A stretch of 64,000 nt of DNA from Escherichia coli (GTDB lineage: Bacteria; Pseudomonadota; Gammaproteobacteria; Enterobacterales; Enterobacteriaceae). The stretch lies in assembly GCF_003334405.1 (NCBI RefSeq), contig NZ_QOWM01000011.1; one strand, written 5' to 3'. Below the pieces are notes generated by a model. It worked only from the letters and a program-made list of their open reading frames with translations. It was not told the DNA's origin and searched no databases. A program made the position numbers and the translations under genes. Of the stretch, positions 19,019-33,646 are shown one piece after another. The stretch's first letter is position 1; each line of letters opens with the position of its first letter.

Positions 19019-19954
19019 TTAAGCGTAAAATTTCAGACGATCAGCCAGTAAATCAACAAAGCCCTGACGATCAACATCGACCATTACGGTGGCATTCGGT
19101 TTATTGCCTGTCAGATAATAATAATCAACAACCGTCATACCCTGGGTATATTTCCCCTGTGTTTCCACGCCAACCCAGCGCTCAACAGAGGTAAATAACT
19201 CCGGTTTCAACAGCCAGGCGATGGTGCATGGGTCATGCAGTGGTGCGCCGACAAAGCCCCATTTTTCGTCTTTATGATATTCGAGGAAGAAATCCAGCAG
19301 TTCGGCAACAATGGTTGAAACAGGGTTACCAATCGCGCGGAAACGCTCGGTGTCTTCAACGTGGATTTGTGCTTTATGAGTAACATCCAGACCGGCCATC
19401 ACCACCGGGATCCCTGACTGGAAGACAATTTCTGCCGCTTCCGGGTCAACGTAAATATTAAATTCAGCCGCAGGCGTCCAGTTACCCAGCCCCATAGCGC
19501 CACCCATAATCACGATACGGGCAATTTTGCTATGCAGTTCCGGATGGCTATTGAGCAGCAAGGCAACGTTAGTTTGCGGTCCGGTAGACACAATGGTGAC
19601 AGGTTCCGCACTTTCACGCAGCGTTTTCGCCATCAGCTCTACCGCCGTACAGTTTTGCGGTGCGAATGTCGGTTCCGGTAATGCCGGGCCGTCGAGACCG
19701 CTTTCGCCGTGCACATTGTCCGCGATAATCAACTCACGCATTAACGGTTTTACCGCGCCGCCTGCTACCGGAATATCGGTGCGATTAAGCAAGGTCAGCA
19801 TACGCAGAACATTGCGTAAGGTTTTTTCTGGTGTCTGGTTTCCGGCGGAAGACGTAATTGCTTTGACATCAAGCTCTGGTGAGGCGAGGGCGAGAACTAT
19901 TGCGATAGCGTCGTCATGACCTGGGTCGCAATCTAACAGAATTGGCAGTGCCAT
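19019..19954 (-). CDS. rihA: Pyrimidine-specific ribonucleoside hydrolase RihA
   Basis: ORF track 19019..19987 (322 aa); DCDPGHDD nucleoside hydrolase motif; start placed at internal Met ([15 protein letters not shown]) giving 311 aa. Confidence 0.9.
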
Positions 19955-20071
19955 TGTTGCTCCTTGTTGTGTGCTTCTTTGCGACAAGGGTAACGCCAGG
20001 ATGTAACAGATACGAGGGGCGAAACGATAAAGCGTGAGATGGCGCGCAATTGGGTATGCGCGCCAGAGTGA

Positions 20072-20797
20072 TTAATGCAGGATTTTCGCGAGGAAGTCTT
20101 TTGCGCGGTCCGATTTCGGATCATCGAAGAAAGCGTCTTTCGGCGAGTCTTCGACAATTTTACCCTCGTCCATAAAGATCACCCGATTCGCCACTTTACG
20201 GGCAAAGCCCATTTCGTGGGTCACCACCATCATGGTCATTCCTTCGTTCGCCAGTTCCACCATCACGTCCAGTACTTCGTTGATCATCTCCGGATCCAGC
20301 GCCGATGTCGGTTCGTCAAACAGCATCGCAATAGGATCCATACACAACGCGCGAGCGATTGCCACACGCTGCTGCTGACCGCCGGAAAGCTGCGCCGGAA
20401 ACTTATTGGCGTGAGCAGAAAGCCCGACACGCTCCAGCAGTTTCAGGGCTTTTTCACGAGCCGGCGCTTTATCGCGTTTAAGCACTTTCACCTGCGCCAG
20501 GGTCAGGTTTTCGATAATCGACAGATGAGGGAACAGCTCGAAATGCTGGAATACCATCCCGACGCGGGAACGCAGCTTTGCCAGATCGGTTTTCTTGTCG
20601 TTAACCACGATACCATCGACGGTGATTTCACCTTGCTGCACCGGTTCGAGGCCGTTGACGGTTTTAATCAGCGTTGATTTGCCGGAACCAGACGGGCCGC
20701 AAACCACCACCACTTCGCCTTTTTTCACTTCGGTTGAGCAGTCGGTCAGCACCTGAAAGTGACCATACCATTTTGAAACATTTTTCAGGGTAATCAT
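20072..20797 (-). CDS. gltL: Glutamate/aspartate ABC transporter ATP-binding protein
   Basis: ORF track 241 aa; Walker [13 protein letters not shown] signature LSGGQQQR. Confidence 0.93.
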
Positions 20798-21471
20798 TAT
20801 GCTGTCCTTCTTTTCAAGTAGCTGACCAACAACGACGCGCTAAGACTAATAACGAAATAAACAAATCCGGCAAACAGGATCATCTCAACCTGCGTACCAT
20901 CACGCTCACCAATGGTTGAGGCGGTACGGAAGAAATCGGCCAGGGATAACACATACACCAGTGAGGTATCCTGGAACAGTACGATGCCCTGAGTGAGCAG
21001 CAGCGGCACCATCGCGCGGAACGCCTGCGGCAGAATAATCAGTTTCATCGACTGCCAGTGAGTCATTCCCAACGCCAGCGCGGCGCTCGATTGACCACGA
21101 GAAATACTTTGAATACCAGCACGGATAATCTCTGAATAGTAGGCCGCTTCAAACATCGAAAACGCCACCATCGCCGAAATTAAACGGATATCATTTTTTG
21201 GCGATAATCCCAGCACGTTTTGCAGAAAACCCGGCACGATCAGGTAAAACCACAGCAAAACCATAACTAAAGGAATCGAGCGGAATACGTTAACGTAGGC
21301 TTTGGCAAACCACGCCACGGGCGCAAAGCTGGATAAACGCATCACCGCCAGCATCGTGCCCCACAAAATACCAATCACTACCGCCGTGACGGTGATTTTC
21401 AGGGTGATCACCAGCCCGTCGAGCAGATATGGCAGGGAAGGGACAATGGAACTCCAGTCAAACTCGTACAT
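20797..21471 (-). CDS. gltK: Glutamate/aspartate ABC transporter permease
   Basis: ORF track 224 aa, polar amino-acid permease; 1-nt overlap with gltL. Confidence 0.92.
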
Positions 21472-22211
21472 TATTTGCCCCCCATGTTGCCAGGCAGGCG
21501 AACTTTACGTTCAACCAGCGTCATCACCAGCATGATAAAAGCGTTAATCAACACATACGCCAGCGTAATGGCGGTAAACGACTCCCAGGCATGGGCTGAG
21601 TAATCGAGCAATTTACCCGCCTGCGCCGCCATATCCACCAGACCGATAGTCGAGGCGATGGCGGAGTTTTTCACCAGGTTCATCATCTCTGAGGTCATCG
21701 GCGGGACGATAACGCGATAAGCATTAGGCAGCAGTACGTATCGATAAGCCTGCGGTAGCGTCAGGCCCATCGCCAGCGCGGCATTTTTTTGCCCTCGCGG
21801 CAGCGACTGAATCGCGGCGCGTACCTGTTCGCAAACACGGGCGGCGGTAAACAGCCCCAGGCAGAGCATGGATGAAAGGAAAAACTGAATATTGGGATCC
21901 AGCTCGGCCTTAAACCACATGCCGATTTTCTCCGGCAGCAGCTCCGGGATCACCAGATACCAGGTAAAGAATTGCACAATCAACGGCACGTTGCGGAACA
22001 GTTCGACATACAACGTACCCAGACCAGAGAGAAAACGGTTTGGAACGGTACGTAAAATGCCGAAAAATGAACCGACGAGGAAAGCGATAATCCAGGCGCA
22101 GATCGACAAAGCGATCGTCACCTGAAAACCACTCCAGATCCAACCAAGATAGGTGGTGTTGCCGAACGGGGCTTGTTGTAAAAAAATACCCCAGTTCCAG
22201 TCTATAGACAT
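21471..22211 (-). CDS. gltJ: Glutamate/aspartate ABC transporter permease
   Basis: ORF track 246 aa; 1-nt overlap with gltK. Confidence 0.92.
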
Positions 22212-22221
22212 AAATCTACTC

Positions 22222-22384
22222 CAGAAAAAAGAGGGTAGCAGCGTTAACTGCTACCCTCGAAGATTGTTACCCAGCGTATTGCGGTTTTCAGGCCCGATGG
22301 GGAACGACCATCAGGCGTATAGTCTGTCCGTGCTACGTAACAATCGAGAGGGCTGGAATTTCCGCCCCTGGTTCTTGTAATTAG
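22222..22384 (-). ncRNA. sroC: SroC-like sRNA from the gltI-gltJ spacer (3' end at intrinsic terminator hairpin)
   Basis: Hairpin gagggtagcag/ctgctaccctc (22231-22258) followed on the minus strand by a T6 run, just upstream of the gltJ start; location matches recalled SroC. Boundaries approximate. Confidence 0.5.
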
Positions 22385-23289
22385 TTCAGTGCCTTGTCAT
22401 TCGGTTCTTTGAACAGTGCTTTCATTTCGTCTGACAGTTCGAAATTCATGTTCAGGTTTTTCGGCGGAATTGGATTTTTGAACCACTTATCAAACCATTT
22501 TTCCGCTTCACCGGAGGTCTGCACCTGAGCGATGGTGTCATCCATCAGCTTTTTGAACTGCGGATCATCTTTACGCAACATACAACCGTAGGCCTCCTGA
22601 GACTGCGGCTTGCCGACGATTTCCCAGTTGTCTGGTTTCTTCGCTTTCGCACGTTCACCGGCCAGCAGAGCGTCATCCATCATAAAGGCAACGGCACGAC
22701 CGCTTTCCAGGGTGCGGAAAGAGTCACCGTGATCTTTGGCGCTGATGATGCGCATATTCATTTTTTGCTCTTCATTCAGTTTGTTGAGCAAAACTTCAGA
22801 GGTAGTGCCGGAAGTGACGACTACGGCTTTGTCTTTCAGGTTGGCAAAATCTTTGATATCGCCACCCTTTTTGGTCAACAGGCGCGTACCGACCACGAAA
22901 ATAGTGTCAGAGAAAGCCGCCTGTTTTTGGCGTTCGACGTTGTTGGTGGTAGAACCACATTCAAAATCGAAAGTGCCGTTTTGCAGCAGTGGAATACGGT
23001 TTTGTGAGGTAATCGGAATCAGTTTTACCTGCAAGTCCGGTTTGTTGAGTTTCTTTTTCACTGCTTCAACAATGGCGTTGGAGTAATCCTGCGAGTAACC
23101 CACCACTTTTTGCTGATTGTCGTAATAAGAGAAAGGCACTGAAGATTCACGGTGACCGACGACAATCACACCGTTTTTGGCGATTTTGTCCAGAGTACTG
23201 CCCGCTGCCGGGGCGGCGTCATCTGCCTGTGCCAGTCCTGCGGAAAGCGCCAGGGCGAGGATTGCTGTGGCAGGTTTACGTAATTGCAT
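22381..23289 (-). CDS. gltI: Glutamate/aspartate periplasmic binding protein
   Basis: ORF track 22381..23364; start placed at internal Met (MQLRKPATAILALALSAGLAQA, signal peptide) giving 302 aa. Confidence 0.9.
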   Translation of the reverse strand: MQLRKPATAILALALSAGLAQADDAAPAAGSTLDKIAKNGVIVVGHRESSVPFSYYDNQQKVVGYSQDYSNAIVEAVKKKLNKPDLQVKLIPITSQNRIPLLQNGTFDFECGSTTNNVERQKQAAFSDTIFVVGTRLLTKKGGDIKDFANLKDKAVVVTSGTTSEVLLNKLNEEQKMNMRIISAKDHGDSFRTLESGRAVAFMMDDALLAGERAKAKKPDNWEIVGKPQSQEAYGCMLRKDDPQFKKLMDDTIAQVQTSGEAEKWFDKWFKNPIPPKNLNMNFELSDEMKALFKEPNDKALN

Positions 23290-23685
23290 ATCCAACTCCT
23301 TTATCTTCTGCGTTAAGAACGCATGGATACCCGTTGTGAGTGTTTGTGTTGTTATCGTCTGCAACTTTATTGTGCAGTGTTGTGCCTGTTAGGTAACATT
23401 TAGTTTGGCTAAATGTAAAGATATTGCTGTTTTATTGTTTGTTTTTGCGAGATGCGCCGCACCATTCCGAAGCAAAATTCTTAAAATGCACTCTTTTAGT
23501 GCTACCGCTGGATTACTGTGGTGCAACTAGGTTGTACTGATGCTGATTCAGGGTTTGCCTTGTATAACAAAGCAATAGATGTGCCAAAGTTGGATAGGAG
23601 AATATTGTTATCCGGATAATGCACTGATGCCGCATCCGGTGAGCGTGCCGAAATATGGGATGTATTCCGGCACGATAAGAAGGGA

Positions 23686-25224
23686 TTATTTACGTCGCTG
23701 ACGCAGACTCATCAACACAGCAGCAAAACCAAACAATGCCGTCAGCACCCACAGCGGCCAGTTGCCGGTACGTGCGTATGGTGTGAGTCCGGTGGTCGGC
23801 GTCACGTTAGTGGTTAACACCTCGCGGGTGAACTGCGGGATCATCGCCTGAATCTCACCCTGCGGGCCAATCACCGCCGTAATGCCGTTGTTGGTGCTGC
23901 GCAACAGTGGGCGCGCCAGCTCCAGCGCACGCATTCGCGCCATCTGGAAGTGTTGCCATGGACCAATAGATTTACCAAACCACGCATCGTTGGAGATAGT
24001 CAGCAGATAGTCGGTATCCGGGCGGAAGTTATCGCGCACTTGCTCGCCGAGAATGATCTCGTAGCAAATAGCCGCAGTAAGCTCAATACCATTTGCCGAC
24101 AGCGGCGGCTGGATATATGGCCCACGGCTGAACGACGACATCGGCAGATCAAAGAACGGTGCTAACGGACGCAGAATCGACTCCAGCGGGACAAACTCGC
24201 CAAACGGCACCAGATGGTTTTTGTTATAGCGATCGGCTGATTCGTAGCTGTACGGCGCACCTTTACCCAGCGTGATGATGGTGTTGTAGGTATCGTAGCG
24301 GTTCTGCTTATTGAGACGCGCGTCGACAATCCCGGTTACCAGCGAGCTACCTTTATCACGCAACTCACCGTCCAGTGCTTTGAGGAACGGTTGCTGATTA
24401 ATTTCCAGATCGGTTATCGCCGACTCCGGCCAGATAATCAACGATGATTTGCCCATCAGCGGTGCCGTTGCGTTGTAGTAAATCTTCAGCGTATTAAGAA
24501 GCTGGCCTTCGTCCCATTTCAGCGATTGCGGAATATCGCCCTGAACCATCGAAACCTGAATGGTTTTCTCCGGTTGTGGGGTAAACCACTGGATGTAACG
24601 CAGCGGGAAGGGAAGGGCAAACAGCACGACGGCCACCACCAGCGGACGCCAGTTGCGTTTGACCAACGCCAGTGCCAGCAGGCCACTAACCATCATCAGC
24701 AGGAAGTTAATGGCTTCCACGCCCATTATCGGTGCCAGCCCTTTTAACGGGCCATCAATCTGGCTATAGCCGAACTGTAACCACGGGAAGCCGGTCAGTA
24801 CCCAACCGCGCAGAAACTCGGTCACTTGCCAGAGGGCAGGGGCGGCAATCGCTACGCGCAGCCAGGTGGTTTTCGGCCACAGACGCGACAGCACGCCAGC
24901 AAACAGTCCGGTATACAGCGACAAATACGCCGCCAGCAGCACCACCAGGAAGATGTTAACCGGGCCAGGCATTCCGCCAAAGGTCGCGATGCTGACATAG
25001 ACCCAGTTAATACCGCTGCCAAAGAGGCCAAATCCCCAGCAAAAGCCAATAGCGGCAGACTGGAGTGGACGGCGGTTAAAGGTCAACGCCTGAAGCCCCA
25101 TCAGCGAAATAATCGCCGCAGGCCAGACGTCGTAAGGAGAGAAGGCCAGCGTTCCGCAGGCACCGAATAATAACGCCAGCAGCAGGCGAATGCGCTGGCG
25201 TTCAATTAATGAGGCAAAAGCCAT
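23686..25224 (-). CDS. lnt: Apolipoprotein N-acyltransferase
   Basis: ORF track 512 aa; membrane N-terminal half plus C-N hydrolase domain; length matches Lnt. Confidence 0.93.
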
Positions 25225-30772: not shown

Positions 30773-30847
30773 TGGCTGGGGTACGAGGATTCGAACCTCG
30801 GAATGCCGGAATCAGAATCCGGTGCCTTACCGCTTGGCGATACCCCA
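30773..30847 (-). tRNA. glnV: tRNA-Gln (anticodon CUG); glnV/glnX type
   Basis: 75 nt; revcomp TGGGGTATCGCCAAGCGGTAAGGCACCGGATTCTGATTCCGG...CCCCAGCCA; anticodon loop TTCTGAT. Only one CUG copy present, so glnV versus glnX is ambiguous. Confidence 0.93.
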
Positions 30848-30894
30848 ACAAATTGGTTTTGAATTTGCCGAACATATTCGACACATTCAGAATT

Positions 30895-30971
30895 TGGTGG
30901 CTACGACGGGATTCGAACCTGTGACCCCATCATTATGAGTGATGTGCTCTAACCAACTGAGCTACGTAGCC
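30895..30971 (-). tRNA. metU: tRNA-Met elongator (anticodon CAU)
   Basis: 77 nt; revcomp GGCTACGTAGCTCAGTTGGTTAGAGCACATCACTCATAATGATGGGGTCACAGGTTCGAATCCCGTCGTAGCCACCA. Confidence 0.93.
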
Positions 30972-30986
30972 AGATTGTTTCTTCGA

Positions 30987-31061
30987 TGGCTGGGGTACCT
31001 GGATTCGAACCAGGGAATGCCGGTATCAAAAACCGGTGCCTTACCGCTTGGCGATACCCCA
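30987..31061 (-). tRNA. glnU: tRNA-Gln (anticodon UUG); glnU/glnW type
   Basis: 75 nt; anticodon loop TTTTGAT in revcomp; only one UUG copy present, so glnU versus glnW is ambiguous. Confidence 0.93.
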
Positions 31062-31084
31062 TCCGTACAACGCTTTCTGGTGAA

Positions 31085-31169
31085 TGGTGCGGGAGGCGAG
31101 ACTTGAACTCGCACACCTTGCGGCGCCAGAACCTAAATCTGGTGCGTCTACCAATTTCGCCACTCCCGC
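31085..31169 (-). tRNA. leuW: tRNA-Leu (anticodon UAG)
   Basis: 85 nt with long variable arm; revcomp GCGGGAGTGGCGAAATTGGTAGACGCACCAGATTTAGGTTCTGG... Confidence 0.93.
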
Positions 31170-31178
31170 AAAAAAAGA

Positions 31179-31255
31179 TGGTGGCTACGACGGGATTCGA
31201 ACCTGTGACCCCATCATTATGAGTGATGTGCTCTAACCAACTGAGCTACGTAGCC
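31179..31255 (-). tRNA. metT: tRNA-Met elongator (anticodon CAU)
   Basis: 77 nt; identical in sequence to the tRNA at 30895..30971. Confidence 0.93.
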
Positions 31256-33546: not shown

Positions 33547-33646
33547 GCCGGATGCGGCGTGAACGCCTTATCCGGCCTACAAAAGCATGAAAATTCAATA
33601 TATTGCAGGAGCTGCGTAGGCCTGATAAGCGTAGCGCATCAGGCAG
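33547..33646. repeat. Composite REP-spacer-REP element (BIME/RIP-like), copy 1
   Basis: gccggatgcggcgtgaacgccttatccggcctac ... aatatattgcagg ... gtaggcctgataagcgtagcgcatcaggca; inverted orientation relative to copies at 41896 and 49386. Confidence 0.7.

What the first reader, a model, noticed from the sequence alone, without database searches (positions are those of the whole stretch)
22222..22384. Structured gltI-gltJ spacer with a terminator hairpin placed 10 nt upstream of the gltJ start (SroC-like sRNA)
The 169-nt spacer inside the gltIJKL operon contains a strong hairpin (gagggtagcag / ctgctaccctc, 22231-22258) followed on the minus strand by a T6 run ending about 10 nt before the gltJ ATG. 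This is an internal attenuator that would uncouple gltI from gltJKL expression and release a stable 3' fragment, matching what I recall of the Hfq-dependent sponge sRNA SroC.
Basis: partly seen in the sequence, partly recalled or inferred. Interest (0 to 1): 0.3.

Follow-up and report, generated by a model that had tools for sequence, protein, structure and literature searches.

The report
Known SroC sRNA between gltI and gltJ

Summary
The element is already known.

**What is there**
- Window 22223-22385 (- strand) matches Rfam sroC (RF00369) over the full 163-nt model, at 174.8 bits against a gathering score of 45.
- It is base-for-base identical to the annotated MG1655 gene sroC (b4763).
- It is present at >=99% identity in 5420 of 5426 complete E. 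coli genomes.

- The 169-nt spacer, the hairpin at 22258-22231 and the T6 run at 22230-22225 are all as described.
- The T-run ends 13 nt, not 10, before the gltJ ATG.

**Function**
- Both GcvB pairing sites validated by compensatory mutation in Salmonella are intact and 14 nt apart.
- They are invariant in 48 aligned full-length homologues, while the surrounding stems covary strongly.

**Published E. coli data on this same sequence**
- Term-seq places 3' ends at window 22225 and 22231.
- TIER-seq places the main RNase E cut at the SroC 5' end.

**Mechanism**
- A leaky intrinsic terminator makes gltI-sroC transcripts.
- RNase E trims these to stable SroC.
- SroC, with Hfq, triggers GcvB decay.

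**Open point**
The only unresolved question is why the terminator stem and the SL2 base are invariant in sequence. A transient competing helix is a weak, untested idea.

The parts
22223..22385 (-). SroC small RNA, 163 nt (mature form)
   Evidence: Rfam RF00369 at 174.8 bits against a gathering score of 45, model positions 1-163. 100% identical to K-12 ncRNA sroC b4763, 686681-686843.
22385..22386 (-). RNase E processing site that makes the SroC 5' end. It lies inside the last gltI codon (AAC), 2 nt upstream of the TAA stop.
   Evidence: The first base of the Rfam model and of the K-12 annotation is 22385. RNase E dependence in Salmonella comes from PMC4474525. E. coli TIER-seq places its most prominent cleavage site exactly at the SroC 5' end (PMC11347164). 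Not tested here.
22349..22368 (-). Stem-loop 1 (SroC nt 18-37)
   Evidence: Present in the MFE and centroid fold. 86% of cells are paired across 48 homologues, and 2 pairs show changes on both sides (helix 1).
22262..22345 (-). Long stem-loop 2 (SroC nt 41-124), which carries both GcvB pairing sites
   Evidence: MFE fold. Heavy compensatory change in the apical and middle stems (helix 6 has 7 of 9 pairs with changes on both sides and 93% of cells paired).
22322..22329 (-). GcvB binding site BS1 (SroC nt 57-64, GGACAGAC), which pairs with GcvB 156-163 (R3 region / SL4)
   Evidence: Perfect 8-nt complementarity to K-12 GcvB. SroC C60 pairs with GcvB G160, which corresponds to the C63G/G160C compensatory pair of PMC4474525 in Salmonella numbering (+3). 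Invariant in 48 homologues.
22301..22307 (-). GcvB binding site BS2 (SroC nt 79-85, UCGUUCC, in the SL2 apical loop), which pairs with GcvB 13-19 (SL1)
   Evidence: Perfect 7-nt complementarity. SroC C84 pairs with GcvB G14, which corresponds to the published C87G/G14C pair. It lies 14 nt from BS1, as published. The loop CGTTCCCC is invariant.
22231..22258 (-). Rho-independent terminator hairpin (SroC nt 128-155)
   Evidence: Terminator scan: 12 pairs, 7 G-C, loop of 4. Folds at -21.3 kcal/mol. Term-seq maps a 3' end at K-12 686689, which is window 22231.
22225..22230 (-). U6 tract of the terminator. It is a 3' oligo-U tail of the kind that suggests Hfq interaction in sponge RNAs.
   Evidence: Read from the sequence. 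Term-seq maps a 3' end at K-12 686683, which is window 22225, with an intrinsic terminator score of 3.71 and no Rho dependence. Hfq binding was not tested here.
22219..22222 (-). gltJ Shine-Dalgarno GGAG, 7 nt before the ATG and 2 nt after the U-run
   Evidence: Read from the sequence. Its function is inferred from position.
22381..23289 (-). gltI CDS (periplasmic Glu/Asp-binding protein), the parental mRNA of SroC
   Evidence: ORF list. K-12 annotation 686839-687747.
23324..23367 (-). C/A-rich GcvB (R1) target site in the gltI 5' leader, the other half of the feedback loop
   Evidence: Duplex with GcvB 56-95 at -43.0 kcal/mol; none of 500 shuffles did as well. The gltI 5' UTR is a known GcvB target site (PMC4474525).
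20072..22211 (-). gltJ (21471-22211), gltK (20797-21471) and gltL (20072-20797), expressed only from transcripts that read through the SroC terminator
   Evidence: ORFs. K-12 annotation. A read-through band of ~2500 nt is reported in PMC11347164.

Best explanation
This is sroC, the gene for the Hfq-associated sponge RNA SroC.

1. Transcription from the single gltIJKL promoter either stops at a leaky Rho-independent terminator (hairpin 22258-22231 plus U6), giving a ~1.2-kb gltI-sroC transcript, or reads through into gltJKL.
2. RNase E, acting through 5'-end-dependent decay of the gltI part and with Hfq needed for correct maturation, cuts 2 nt upstream of the gltI stop codon. This leaves the very stable, tightly folded 163-nt SroC.
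3. SroC pairs with GcvB through two short sites, GGACAGAC in an internal bulge of stem-loop 2 and UCGUUCC in its apical loop.
4. That pairing makes RNase E degrade GcvB.
5. Loss of GcvB relieves repression of many amino-acid transport and metabolism mRNAs. One of them is gltI itself, whose leader carries a GcvB R1 site at 23367-23324.
6. The terminator also sets the excess of the binding protein GltI over the membrane subunits GltJKL.

**Shown here:** sequence identity to the annotated gene, family membership, the fold and its covariation, the terminator, the intact pairing sites, and their conservation.

**Taken from the literature on the same sequence or on Salmonella:** the RNase E and Hfq steps, GcvB decay and the mapped RNA ends.
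For: **Identity and distribution**
- Rfam sroC, full length, 174.8 bits.
- 201/201 identity to MG1655 across the annotated sroC b4763.
- >=99% identity in 5420 of 5426 E. coli genomes.

**Structure**
- Fold z = -6.5.
- Strongest terminator-like site in the 4-kb region.

[quoted passage not shown] **Conservation**
- The spacers came from a search anchored on gltJ, so it was not biased toward SroC sequence.
- 80 of 112 Enterobacterales spacers have a terminator ending within 14 nt of the gltJ ATG. Of those 80, 62 keep both 7-mers and 76 keep both sites at 6-mer level or better.
- In 48 aligned homologues the covariation score is 0.257, against 0.113 in shuffles (0 of 500 as high) and <=0.072 in slid controls. 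BS1 and BS2 are invariant.

**Literature**
- Biogenesis, Hfq and RNase E dependence and GcvB decay: PMC4474525.
- E. coli Term-seq 3' ends at window 22225 and 22231, intrinsic terminator score 3.71, not Rho-dependent, coverage 102 upstream against 82 downstream: PMC7815308.
- E. coli TIER-seq cut at the SroC 5' end and the 1200-nt and 2500-nt bands: PMC11347164.
- SroC half-life above 16 min in E. coli: PMC10250213.
- About 70% of GcvB chimeras in stationary phase are with SroC: PMC9299463.
Against: Nothing contradicts it.

**Caveats**
- Complementarity alone is not statistically informative. Shuffled SroC gives on average 1.4 perfect matches of 7 nt or more to GcvB, so the pairing claim rests on the published compensatory mutations and on the invariance of the sites.
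- No expression data exist for this particular strain. It differs from MG1655 in lacking the IS5 upstream of gltI.
- gcvB is not in the window, so its sequence in this strain is assumed to match K-12.
Confidence: 0.97

Rival explanations
1. It is only a cis-acting intercistronic terminator. It lowers gltJKL relative to gltI to set subunit stoichiometry, and the RNA fragment it leaves has no function in trans.
For: - Its position right after the first cistron of an ABC-transporter operon and its strong hairpin plus U-run fit this role.
- The stoichiometry role is accepted in PMC4474525.
- Term-seq coverage of 102 upstream against 82 downstream shows partial termination.
Against: - A terminator needs only about 35 nt, yet 130 more nt are conserved.
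- Two 7-8-nt single-stranded motifs are invariant across 48 species while the flanking stems covary.
- These motifs match GcvB at bases proven by compensatory mutation.
- Deleting sroC stabilises GcvB from 1.7 min to more than 15 min.
- This rival is true as a partial description but insufficient on its own.
Confidence: 0.02
2. It is a stabiliser hairpin of the REP type, as in malE-malF. It would protect the upstream gltI message from 3' exonucleases after endonucleolytic cleavage, rather than act as a transcription terminator.
For: Selective stabilisation of the first cistron is the common way ABC-transporter operons raise binding-protein levels (PMC4474525).
Against: - The hairpin is followed directly by U6.
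- Term-seq 3' ends lie at the end of the U-run, with an intrinsic terminator score of 3.71.
- The sequence is single-copy: the median is 1 place per genome across 5422 genomes, which is unlike a REP element.
- The authors explicitly contrast gltI with the stabiliser mechanism.
Confidence: 0.01
3. On top of being SroC, the spacer is a regulated attenuator. A transient helix between UCUCG (SroC 37-41, window 22349-22345) and CGAGG (127-131, window 22259-22255) competes with the 5' arm of the terminator. This helix, or a factor that binds it, would set how often transcription reads into gltJKL, and so how much SroC is made.
For: - The Rfam consensus structure contains this helix.
- It is in the MFE of nascent RNA ending at nt 131-143, before the 3' arm of the terminator exists.
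- 90% of cells can pair across 48 species.
- The terminator stem base GGGUAG/CUACCC, the SL2 base and the linker are invariant in sequence, which is more than a terminator needs.
- PMC4474525 notes conserved nucleotides outside the GcvB sites and raises regulated termination as a possibility.
Against: - There is no covariation signal: the covariation score and the counts of changes on both sides are reached by 265-272 of 500 shuffles, because the columns barely vary.
- The completed terminator wins by about 10 kcal/mol, and the competing pairs have probability below 0.001 at equilibrium.
- No riboswitch or leader family hits the region.
- The invariance may instead reflect Hfq binding, RNase E resistance or gltJ translation signals.
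Confidence: 0.12

Closest known systems
SroC (Rfam RF00369; E. coli K-12 b4763; Salmonella SroC of Miyakoshi, Chao & Vogel 2015)
   Same: Everything that could be tested matches: sequence (100% to K-12), length, position in the gltI-gltJ spacer, three-hairpin fold, terminator, and the BS1 and BS2 sites with their 14-nt spacing.
   Different: Nothing in the RNA itself. The strain differs from MG1655 upstream, with no IS5D about 100 nt before the gltI ATG. The numbering of the Salmonella RNA is +3 relative to E. coli.
Other processed 3'-UTR-derived Hfq sRNAs (CpxQ, SdhX, NarS, MalH, OppZ)
   Same: They are made by RNase E from the 3' end of an mRNA, share the parental terminator, carry a 5' monophosphate and are stable (PMC9438474; PMC10250213).
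   Different: SroC sits inside an operon, behind a leaky internal terminator, rather than at the operon's end. Its main target is another sRNA (it acts as a sponge) rather than mRNAs.
Truncated SroC homologue of Yersinia pestis (PMC4474525, Supplementary Fig S1D)
   Same: Same locus and the same SL2 with BS2 in its loop. I see this form in Yersinia, Photorhabdus, Xenorhabdus, Providencia and Rahnella spacers.
   Different: In those species the BS1 7-mer is absent from the spacer, and a U-run follows SL2 directly, 42-80 nt before gltJ. The paper attributes the Y. pestis defect to loss of 'BS2'. By its own mutant pairing (C63/G160 = BS1, C87/G14 = BS2), the site my scan finds missing is BS1, so the site naming does not line up. 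The published Y. pestis form cannot regulate GcvB. The window has the full-length, functional form.
Other sRNA sponges (3'ETS-leuZ, AgvB, ChiZ, chbBC spacer, RbsZ)
   Same: They base-pair with an Hfq-dependent sRNA and lower its activity.
   Different: SroC triggers RNase E decay of its target without being consumed. AgvB only sequesters GcvB, and the chbBC spacer acts on ChiX through a different route (the paper describes ChiX's 3' terminator region becoming susceptible to PNPase).

Membership tests
SroC (Rfam RF00369) | Covariance-model score at or above the curated gathering threshold, over the whole model | tested here: met
   174.8 bits against a gathering score of 45, E = 7.4e-37, model 1-163 of 163, not truncated.
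SroC (Rfam RF00369) | Located in the gltI (ybeJ)-gltJ spacer on the operon strand, starting at the gltI stop codon | tested here: met
   gltI stop at 22383-22381, gltJ ATG at 22211, RNA at 22385-22223 on the - strand. Same layout as the K-12 annotation.
SroC (Rfam RF00369) | Two short GcvB-complementary sites, BS1 and BS2, 14 nt apart | tested here: met
   SroC 57-64 pairs with GcvB 156-163, and SroC 79-85 pairs with GcvB 13-19. The registers match the published compensatory mutants. The sites are invariant in 48 homologues.
SroC (Rfam RF00369) | Conserved secondary structure: SL1, long SL2 and terminator SL3 | tested here: met
   MFE z = -6.5. Covariation 0.257 against 0.113 in shuffles, with 0 of 500 as high. 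RNAalifold finds 16 of 28 pairs with compensatory changes.
SroC (Rfam RF00369) | 3' end formed by a Rho-independent terminator that lets some transcription through | tested here: met
   Hairpin plus U6 by sequence. Published Term-seq ends on the identical K-12 sequence fall at window 22225 and 22231, with an intrinsic terminator score of 3.71, Rho 'No', and coverage of 102 upstream against 82 downstream.
SroC (Rfam RF00369) | 5' end made by RNase E processing (5' monophosphate), not by a promoter | not testable with these tools
   The promoter scan finds no sigma-70-like site on the - strand in 19800-23800, which is weak evidence. Published support: PMC4474525 and E. coli TIER-seq in PMC11347164.
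SroC (Rfam RF00369) | Binds Hfq and causes Hfq- and RNase E-dependent decay of GcvB | not testable with these tools
   Published for Salmonella and for the E. coli homologue. The sequence here is identical to the E. coli RNA that was tested.
Intrinsic (Rho-independent) terminator | G+C-rich hairpin followed immediately by a U-run | tested here: met
   12 pairs, 7 of them G-C, a 4-nt loop and then TTTTTT. Folds at -21.3 kcal/mol.
Regulated transcription attenuator / riboswitch | Mutually exclusive anti-terminator helix supported by covariation, or a ligand or leader-peptide sensor | tested here: inconclusive
   A competing helix exists and forms in nascent-RNA folds, but it has no covariation signal because the columns are nearly invariant. 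No riboswitch or leader family hits the region. The only ATG-started ORF on the - strand of the spacer is 7 codons long (SroC 75-98), and its ATG is not conserved.

The most novel reading that the evidence does not exclude
The nucleotides that are invariant outside the two GcvB sites may encode a kinetic switch or a factor-binding site. These are the SL2 base GAUUG/CAAUC, the linker CUUCGAG and the terminator stem GGGUAG/CUACCC. A transient UCUCG:CGAGG helix would delay terminator folding. That would tune read-through into gltJKL against release of gltI-SroC, and so set GcvB levels. This would answer the question Miyakoshi et al. left open in 2015 about regulated termination in the gltI-gltJ spacer.
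Probability: 0.12. Interest if true: 0.4.

Novelty: already known. Interest (0 to 1): 0.1.

Why it matters
SroC is a textbook example of an mRNA fragment acting as a regulator. It links expression of the glutamate/aspartate transporter to the whole GcvB amino-acid regulon, and it also affects MgrR/eptB (polymyxin susceptibility) and flagellar genes. It adds no new biology. The one small open point is why the terminator stem is invariant in sequence across three bacterial families, and whether termination there is regulated.

Tried and rejected
1. **Whole-molecule RNAduplex of SroC against GcvB or MgrR.** The output is meaningless because intramolecular structure is ignored, and the shuffle control shows perfect matches of 7 nt or more are common by chance (mean 1.4). 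I therefore used only the positions that coincide with published mutants.
2. **MgrR pairing.** The only match of 8 nt is to MgrR's own terminator stem (SroC 98-105 with MgrR 87-94), so it says nothing. The published SroC-MgrR link could not be checked because the paper is not in the library.
3. **Competing helix as a conserved anti-terminator.** There is no covariation signal. I kept it only as a low-probability reading.
4. **Shared stem sequence between the SroC terminator and the GcvB internal hairpin.** That hairpin is only moderately conserved in the Rfam GcvB consensus, so this is probably coincidence.
5. **Small ORFs.** The 75-aa + strand ORF at 22153-22380 is antisense to the spacer and to the gltJ start, and appears only in a purely mechanical ORF list. 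The 7-codon ORF inside SL2 has an ATG that is not conserved. I rejected both.
6. **REP-type stabiliser.** Rejected; see the rival explanations.
7. **Sandbox files.** The first two Python attempts failed because L002 and L003 were not yet visible in the sandbox, so I pasted the sequences in instead.

Full report
**1. The observation**

The hairpin GAGGGTAGCAG/CTGCTACCCTC lies at 22258-22231 and is followed by T6 at 22230-22225. Thirteen nucleotides (22224-22212) separate the T-run from the ATG, not about 10, and they hold the gltJ Shine-Dalgarno GGAG at 22222-22219.

The consensus scan ranks this first among the terminator-like sites in 19800-23800, with 12 pairs, 7 of them G-C, a 4-nt loop and then TTTTTT; no other site there has more than 7 pairs. 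Alone it folds at -21.3 kcal/mol. The 163-nt stretch folds at -66.3 kcal/mol, against -40.5 +/- 4.0 for dinucleotide shuffles (z = -6.5, 0 of 200 as good). It forms three elements: SL1 (nt 18-37), a long SL2 (nt 41-124) and the terminator (nt 128-155).

**2. Identity**

An Rfam scan of the whole window gives sroC (RF00369) at 22385-22223 on the - strand. The score is 174.8 bits against a gathering score of 45, E = 7e-37, and the match covers model positions 1-163 of 163.

The K-12 MG1655 record annotates ncRNA sroC (b4763) at 686681-686843, between gltJ and gltI. A 201-nt alignment across it is 100% identical to the window. The stretch is present at >=99% identity in 5420 of 5426 complete E. 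coli genomes, nearly always once per genome. The window is therefore E. coli, and the element is the annotated sroC gene.

**3. Functional anatomy in this copy**

Miyakoshi, Chao and Vogel (PMC4474525) showed the following in Salmonella:
- SroC is a stable decay fragment of the gltI message, and both its biogenesis and its action need RNase E.
- Hfq is needed for correct 5' maturation and for GcvB depletion.
- SroC pairs with GcvB at two short sites, BS1 and BS2, which are 14 nt apart in SroC.
- The pairing was proven by compensatory mutations: SroC C63G with GcvB G160C, and SroC C87G with GcvB G14C.
- The E. coli pair is equally functional.

I took gcvB from K-12 and found perfect complementarity at two places:
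- SroC 57-64 (GGACAGAC) with GcvB 156-163.
- SroC 79-85 (UCGUUCC) with GcvB 13-19.

In that register SroC C60 pairs with G160 and SroC C84 pairs with G14. These are the published pairs with the +3 numbering offset of the Salmonella RNA. The two sites are 14 nt apart.

Shuffled SroC gives on average 1.4 perfect matches of 7 nt or more to GcvB. Complementarity alone therefore proves nothing, and the weight rests on the coincidence with the mutational data and on conservation.

The gltI leader also carries the C/A-rich GcvB R1 target at 23367-23324 (-43.0 kcal/mol, 0 of 500 shuffles as good). Both arms of the published feed-forward loop are therefore in the window.

**4. Related sequences**

To avoid bias toward SroC sequence, I scanned one genome per species with a degenerate pattern for the GltJ N-terminus, DWNWGIFL. 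This gave 120 Enterobacterales loci, and 112 of them yielded a usable gltI-gltJ spacer of 32-374 nt.

- 80 of the 112 have a terminator-like hairpin whose T-rich tail ends within 14 nt of the gltJ ATG, as in the window.
- Of these 80, 62 keep both exact 7-mers, and 76 keep both sites at 6-mer level or better.
- The BS1-BS2 gap is 12-14 nt in 57 of the 62.
- These species belong to genera of Enterobacteriaceae, Erwiniaceae and Pectobacteriaceae (family placement is from my own knowledge).
- Yersinia, Photorhabdus, Xenorhabdus, Providencia and Rahnella lack BS1. They keep BS2 in the 7-nt loop of a 9-14-bp stem that is followed directly by a T-run, 42-80 nt before gltJ. This fits the truncated, non-functional form that the paper describes for Y. 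pestis. The paper, however, names 'BS2' as the unconserved site. By its own mutant pairing (C63/G160 = BS1, C87/G14 = BS2), the 7-mer my scan finds missing is BS1.

An alignment of 48 distinct full-length homologues gives these results:
- BS1, the BS2 loop, the SL2 base, the linker ATCTT and the terminator stem GGGTAG/CTACCC are invariant.
- RNAalifold finds 16 of 28 pairs with compensatory changes.
- The E. coli MFE structure projected onto the alignment has 87.9% of cells paired and 183 cells with changes on both sides, against 56 in shuffles.
- The covariation score is 0.257, against 0.113 in shuffles (0 of 500 as high) and <=0.072 for slid controls.
- The short helix that would cover part of BS1 is paired in only 50% of cells. 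This fits BS1 lying in an open internal bulge, as the probing data indicate.

**5. Transcript ends**

Term-seq of E. coli MG1655 (Adams et al. 2021, PMC7815308, supplementary files 1 and 3) lists 3' ends at 686683 and 686689 on the - strand. These are classed as internal to sroC, 14 and 20 nt upstream of gltJ.

With the offset, these are window 22225, the last T of the T-run, and 22231, the last base of the stem. For 686683 the table gives an intrinsic terminator score of 3.71 (3.0 or more suggests intrinsic termination) and 'No' for a Rho termination region. Read coverage is 102 upstream against 82 downstream, so there is substantial read-through.

At the 5' end, E. coli TIER-seq finds the most prominent RNase E site in the gltI 3' region exactly where SroC begins. 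Northern blots show a ~1200-nt gltI-sroC species and a ~2500-nt read-through species, and GcvB itself promotes SroC production (PMC11347164).

Two further results come from E. coli:
- SroC is very stable, with a half-life above 16 min whatever its 5' phosphorylation state (PMC10250213).
- In stationary phase about 70% of GcvB chimeras are with SroC (PMC9299463).

Reviews add MgrR sponging, which affects eptB and LPS modification, and repression of fliE and flhBAE (PMC9438474).

**6. Mechanism**

1. Transcription from the gltI promoter meets a leaky intrinsic terminator 13 nt before gltJ.
2. Terminated transcripts (gltI-sroC) supply extra GltI.
3. Through 5'-end-dependent RNase E decay, with Hfq needed for correct maturation, they are trimmed to SroC.
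4. SroC pairs through BS1 and BS2 with GcvB, and RNase E then destroys GcvB while SroC survives.
5. GcvB targets, including gltI, are de-repressed.

The steps shown here are identity, fold, terminator, pairing sites and conservation. The steps taken from published experiments on the identical or orthologous RNA are RNase E processing, Hfq dependence, GcvB decay and the mapped ends.

**7. What remains unexplained**

The six basal pairs of the terminator stem never vary in 48 species, whereas SL2 stems vary freely. This is more constraint than a terminator needs.

The Rfam consensus pairs UCUCG (nt 37-41) with CGAGG (nt 127-131), which overlaps the 5' arm of the terminator. In folds of nascent RNA ending at nt 131-143 this helix is in the MFE. 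Once the 3' arm is made, the terminator wins by about 10 kcal/mol, -66.8 against -56.2. This could contribute kinetically to leakiness, and the authors themselves raised regulated termination as a possibility.

The helix shows no covariation signal, because its columns hardly vary. I therefore rate it a low-probability reading.

The same stem sequence occurs in GcvB's internal hairpin. That hairpin is only moderately conserved in the Rfam GcvB consensus, so I treat the match as coincidence.

**8. Verdict**

The element is the already known and annotated SroC, so interest is low.
- The 5' end comes from RNase E cleavage.
- The spacing to the ATG is 13 nt.
- 'Attenuator' should read 'leaky intrinsic terminator', because regulation of termination has not been shown.

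Noticed in passing
window 23389-23393 (gltI-lnt intergenic, 23290-23685): The window has an empty site where MG1655 carries IS5D (insH3), about 100 nt upstream of the gltI ATG. Window 23200-23393 aligns to K-12 up to the IS edge, and window 23389-23800 resumes after it. This strain therefore has an uninterrupted gltI promoter region, unlike MG1655.
   Followed up: partly
window 30773-31255 (- strand): The tRNA cluster has 5 genes: Gln-CTG, Met, Gln-TTG, Leu-TAG and Met. MG1655 has 7: glnX, glnV, metU, glnW, glnU, leuW and metT. Both tandem tRNA-Gln pairs are collapsed to single copies here.
   Followed up: partly
window 33581-33623 (+ strand): An Rfam hit to ES036 (CssrF) sRNA scores just above threshold, at 41.1 bits against a gathering score of 37.6. 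It lies in the asnB-umpH intergenic region.
   Followed up: no
window 22231-22258 and K-12 GcvB nt 114-128 (L002 410-424): The SroC terminator stem (GGGUAGC/GCUACCC plus a U-run) has the same stem sequence as GcvB's internal terminator-like hairpin, GGUAGC-AAA-GCUACC-U6. The GcvB hairpin is only moderately conserved in the Rfam consensus, so this is probably coincidence.
   Followed up: partly
L064, L080, L082, L087, L089, L093 (insert upstream of SroC); L024, L020 (insert inside SL2): Some species have gltI-gltJ spacers of 280-350 nt because of an insertion of at least ~125 nt, either between the gltI stop and SroC or inside the 3' half of SL2 after BS2. The inserted sequence (...GTGAATCCCCGGGAGC.TAC...GTAAGTGAC.GGGGTGA...) looks like an ERIC/IRU repeat from memory, which I did not test. 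An insertion inside SL2 may alter or disable SroC there.
   Followed up: no
L057 (Enterobacter sp. R1) and L119 (Cedecea colo), 339-nt spacers: In L057 (the one I read; L119 has the same spacer length and motif positions), a degenerate first copy of the terminator hairpin lacks a T-run (GAGGGTAGCATTGCTGCCCTCAAC). About 130 nt of extra sequence follow, and then a second, intact terminator sits next to gltJ.
   Followed up: no
L007, L062, L063, L074, L084 (Yersinia); L006, L052, L055 (Photorhabdus); L043, L116, L118, L122 (Xenorhabdus); L004, L071 (Providencia): These spacers lack BS1. In all but L071 (where my scan found no terminator-like site), a T-run follows directly after the SL2 hairpin that carries BS2 in its loop, 42-80 nt before gltJ. 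The truncated form published for Y. pestis therefore appears to be widespread outside the Enterobacteriaceae, Erwiniaceae and Pectobacteriaceae.
   Followed up: partly
L058, L060 (Edwardsiella), L120, L123 (Erwinia), L104 (Ca. Symbiopectobacterium): These have short gltI-gltJ spacers of 32-102 nt with neither GcvB pairing motif, so SroC appears to be absent. In L104 the upstream ORF does not end like GltI and may be a pseudogene or a rearrangement.
   Followed up: no
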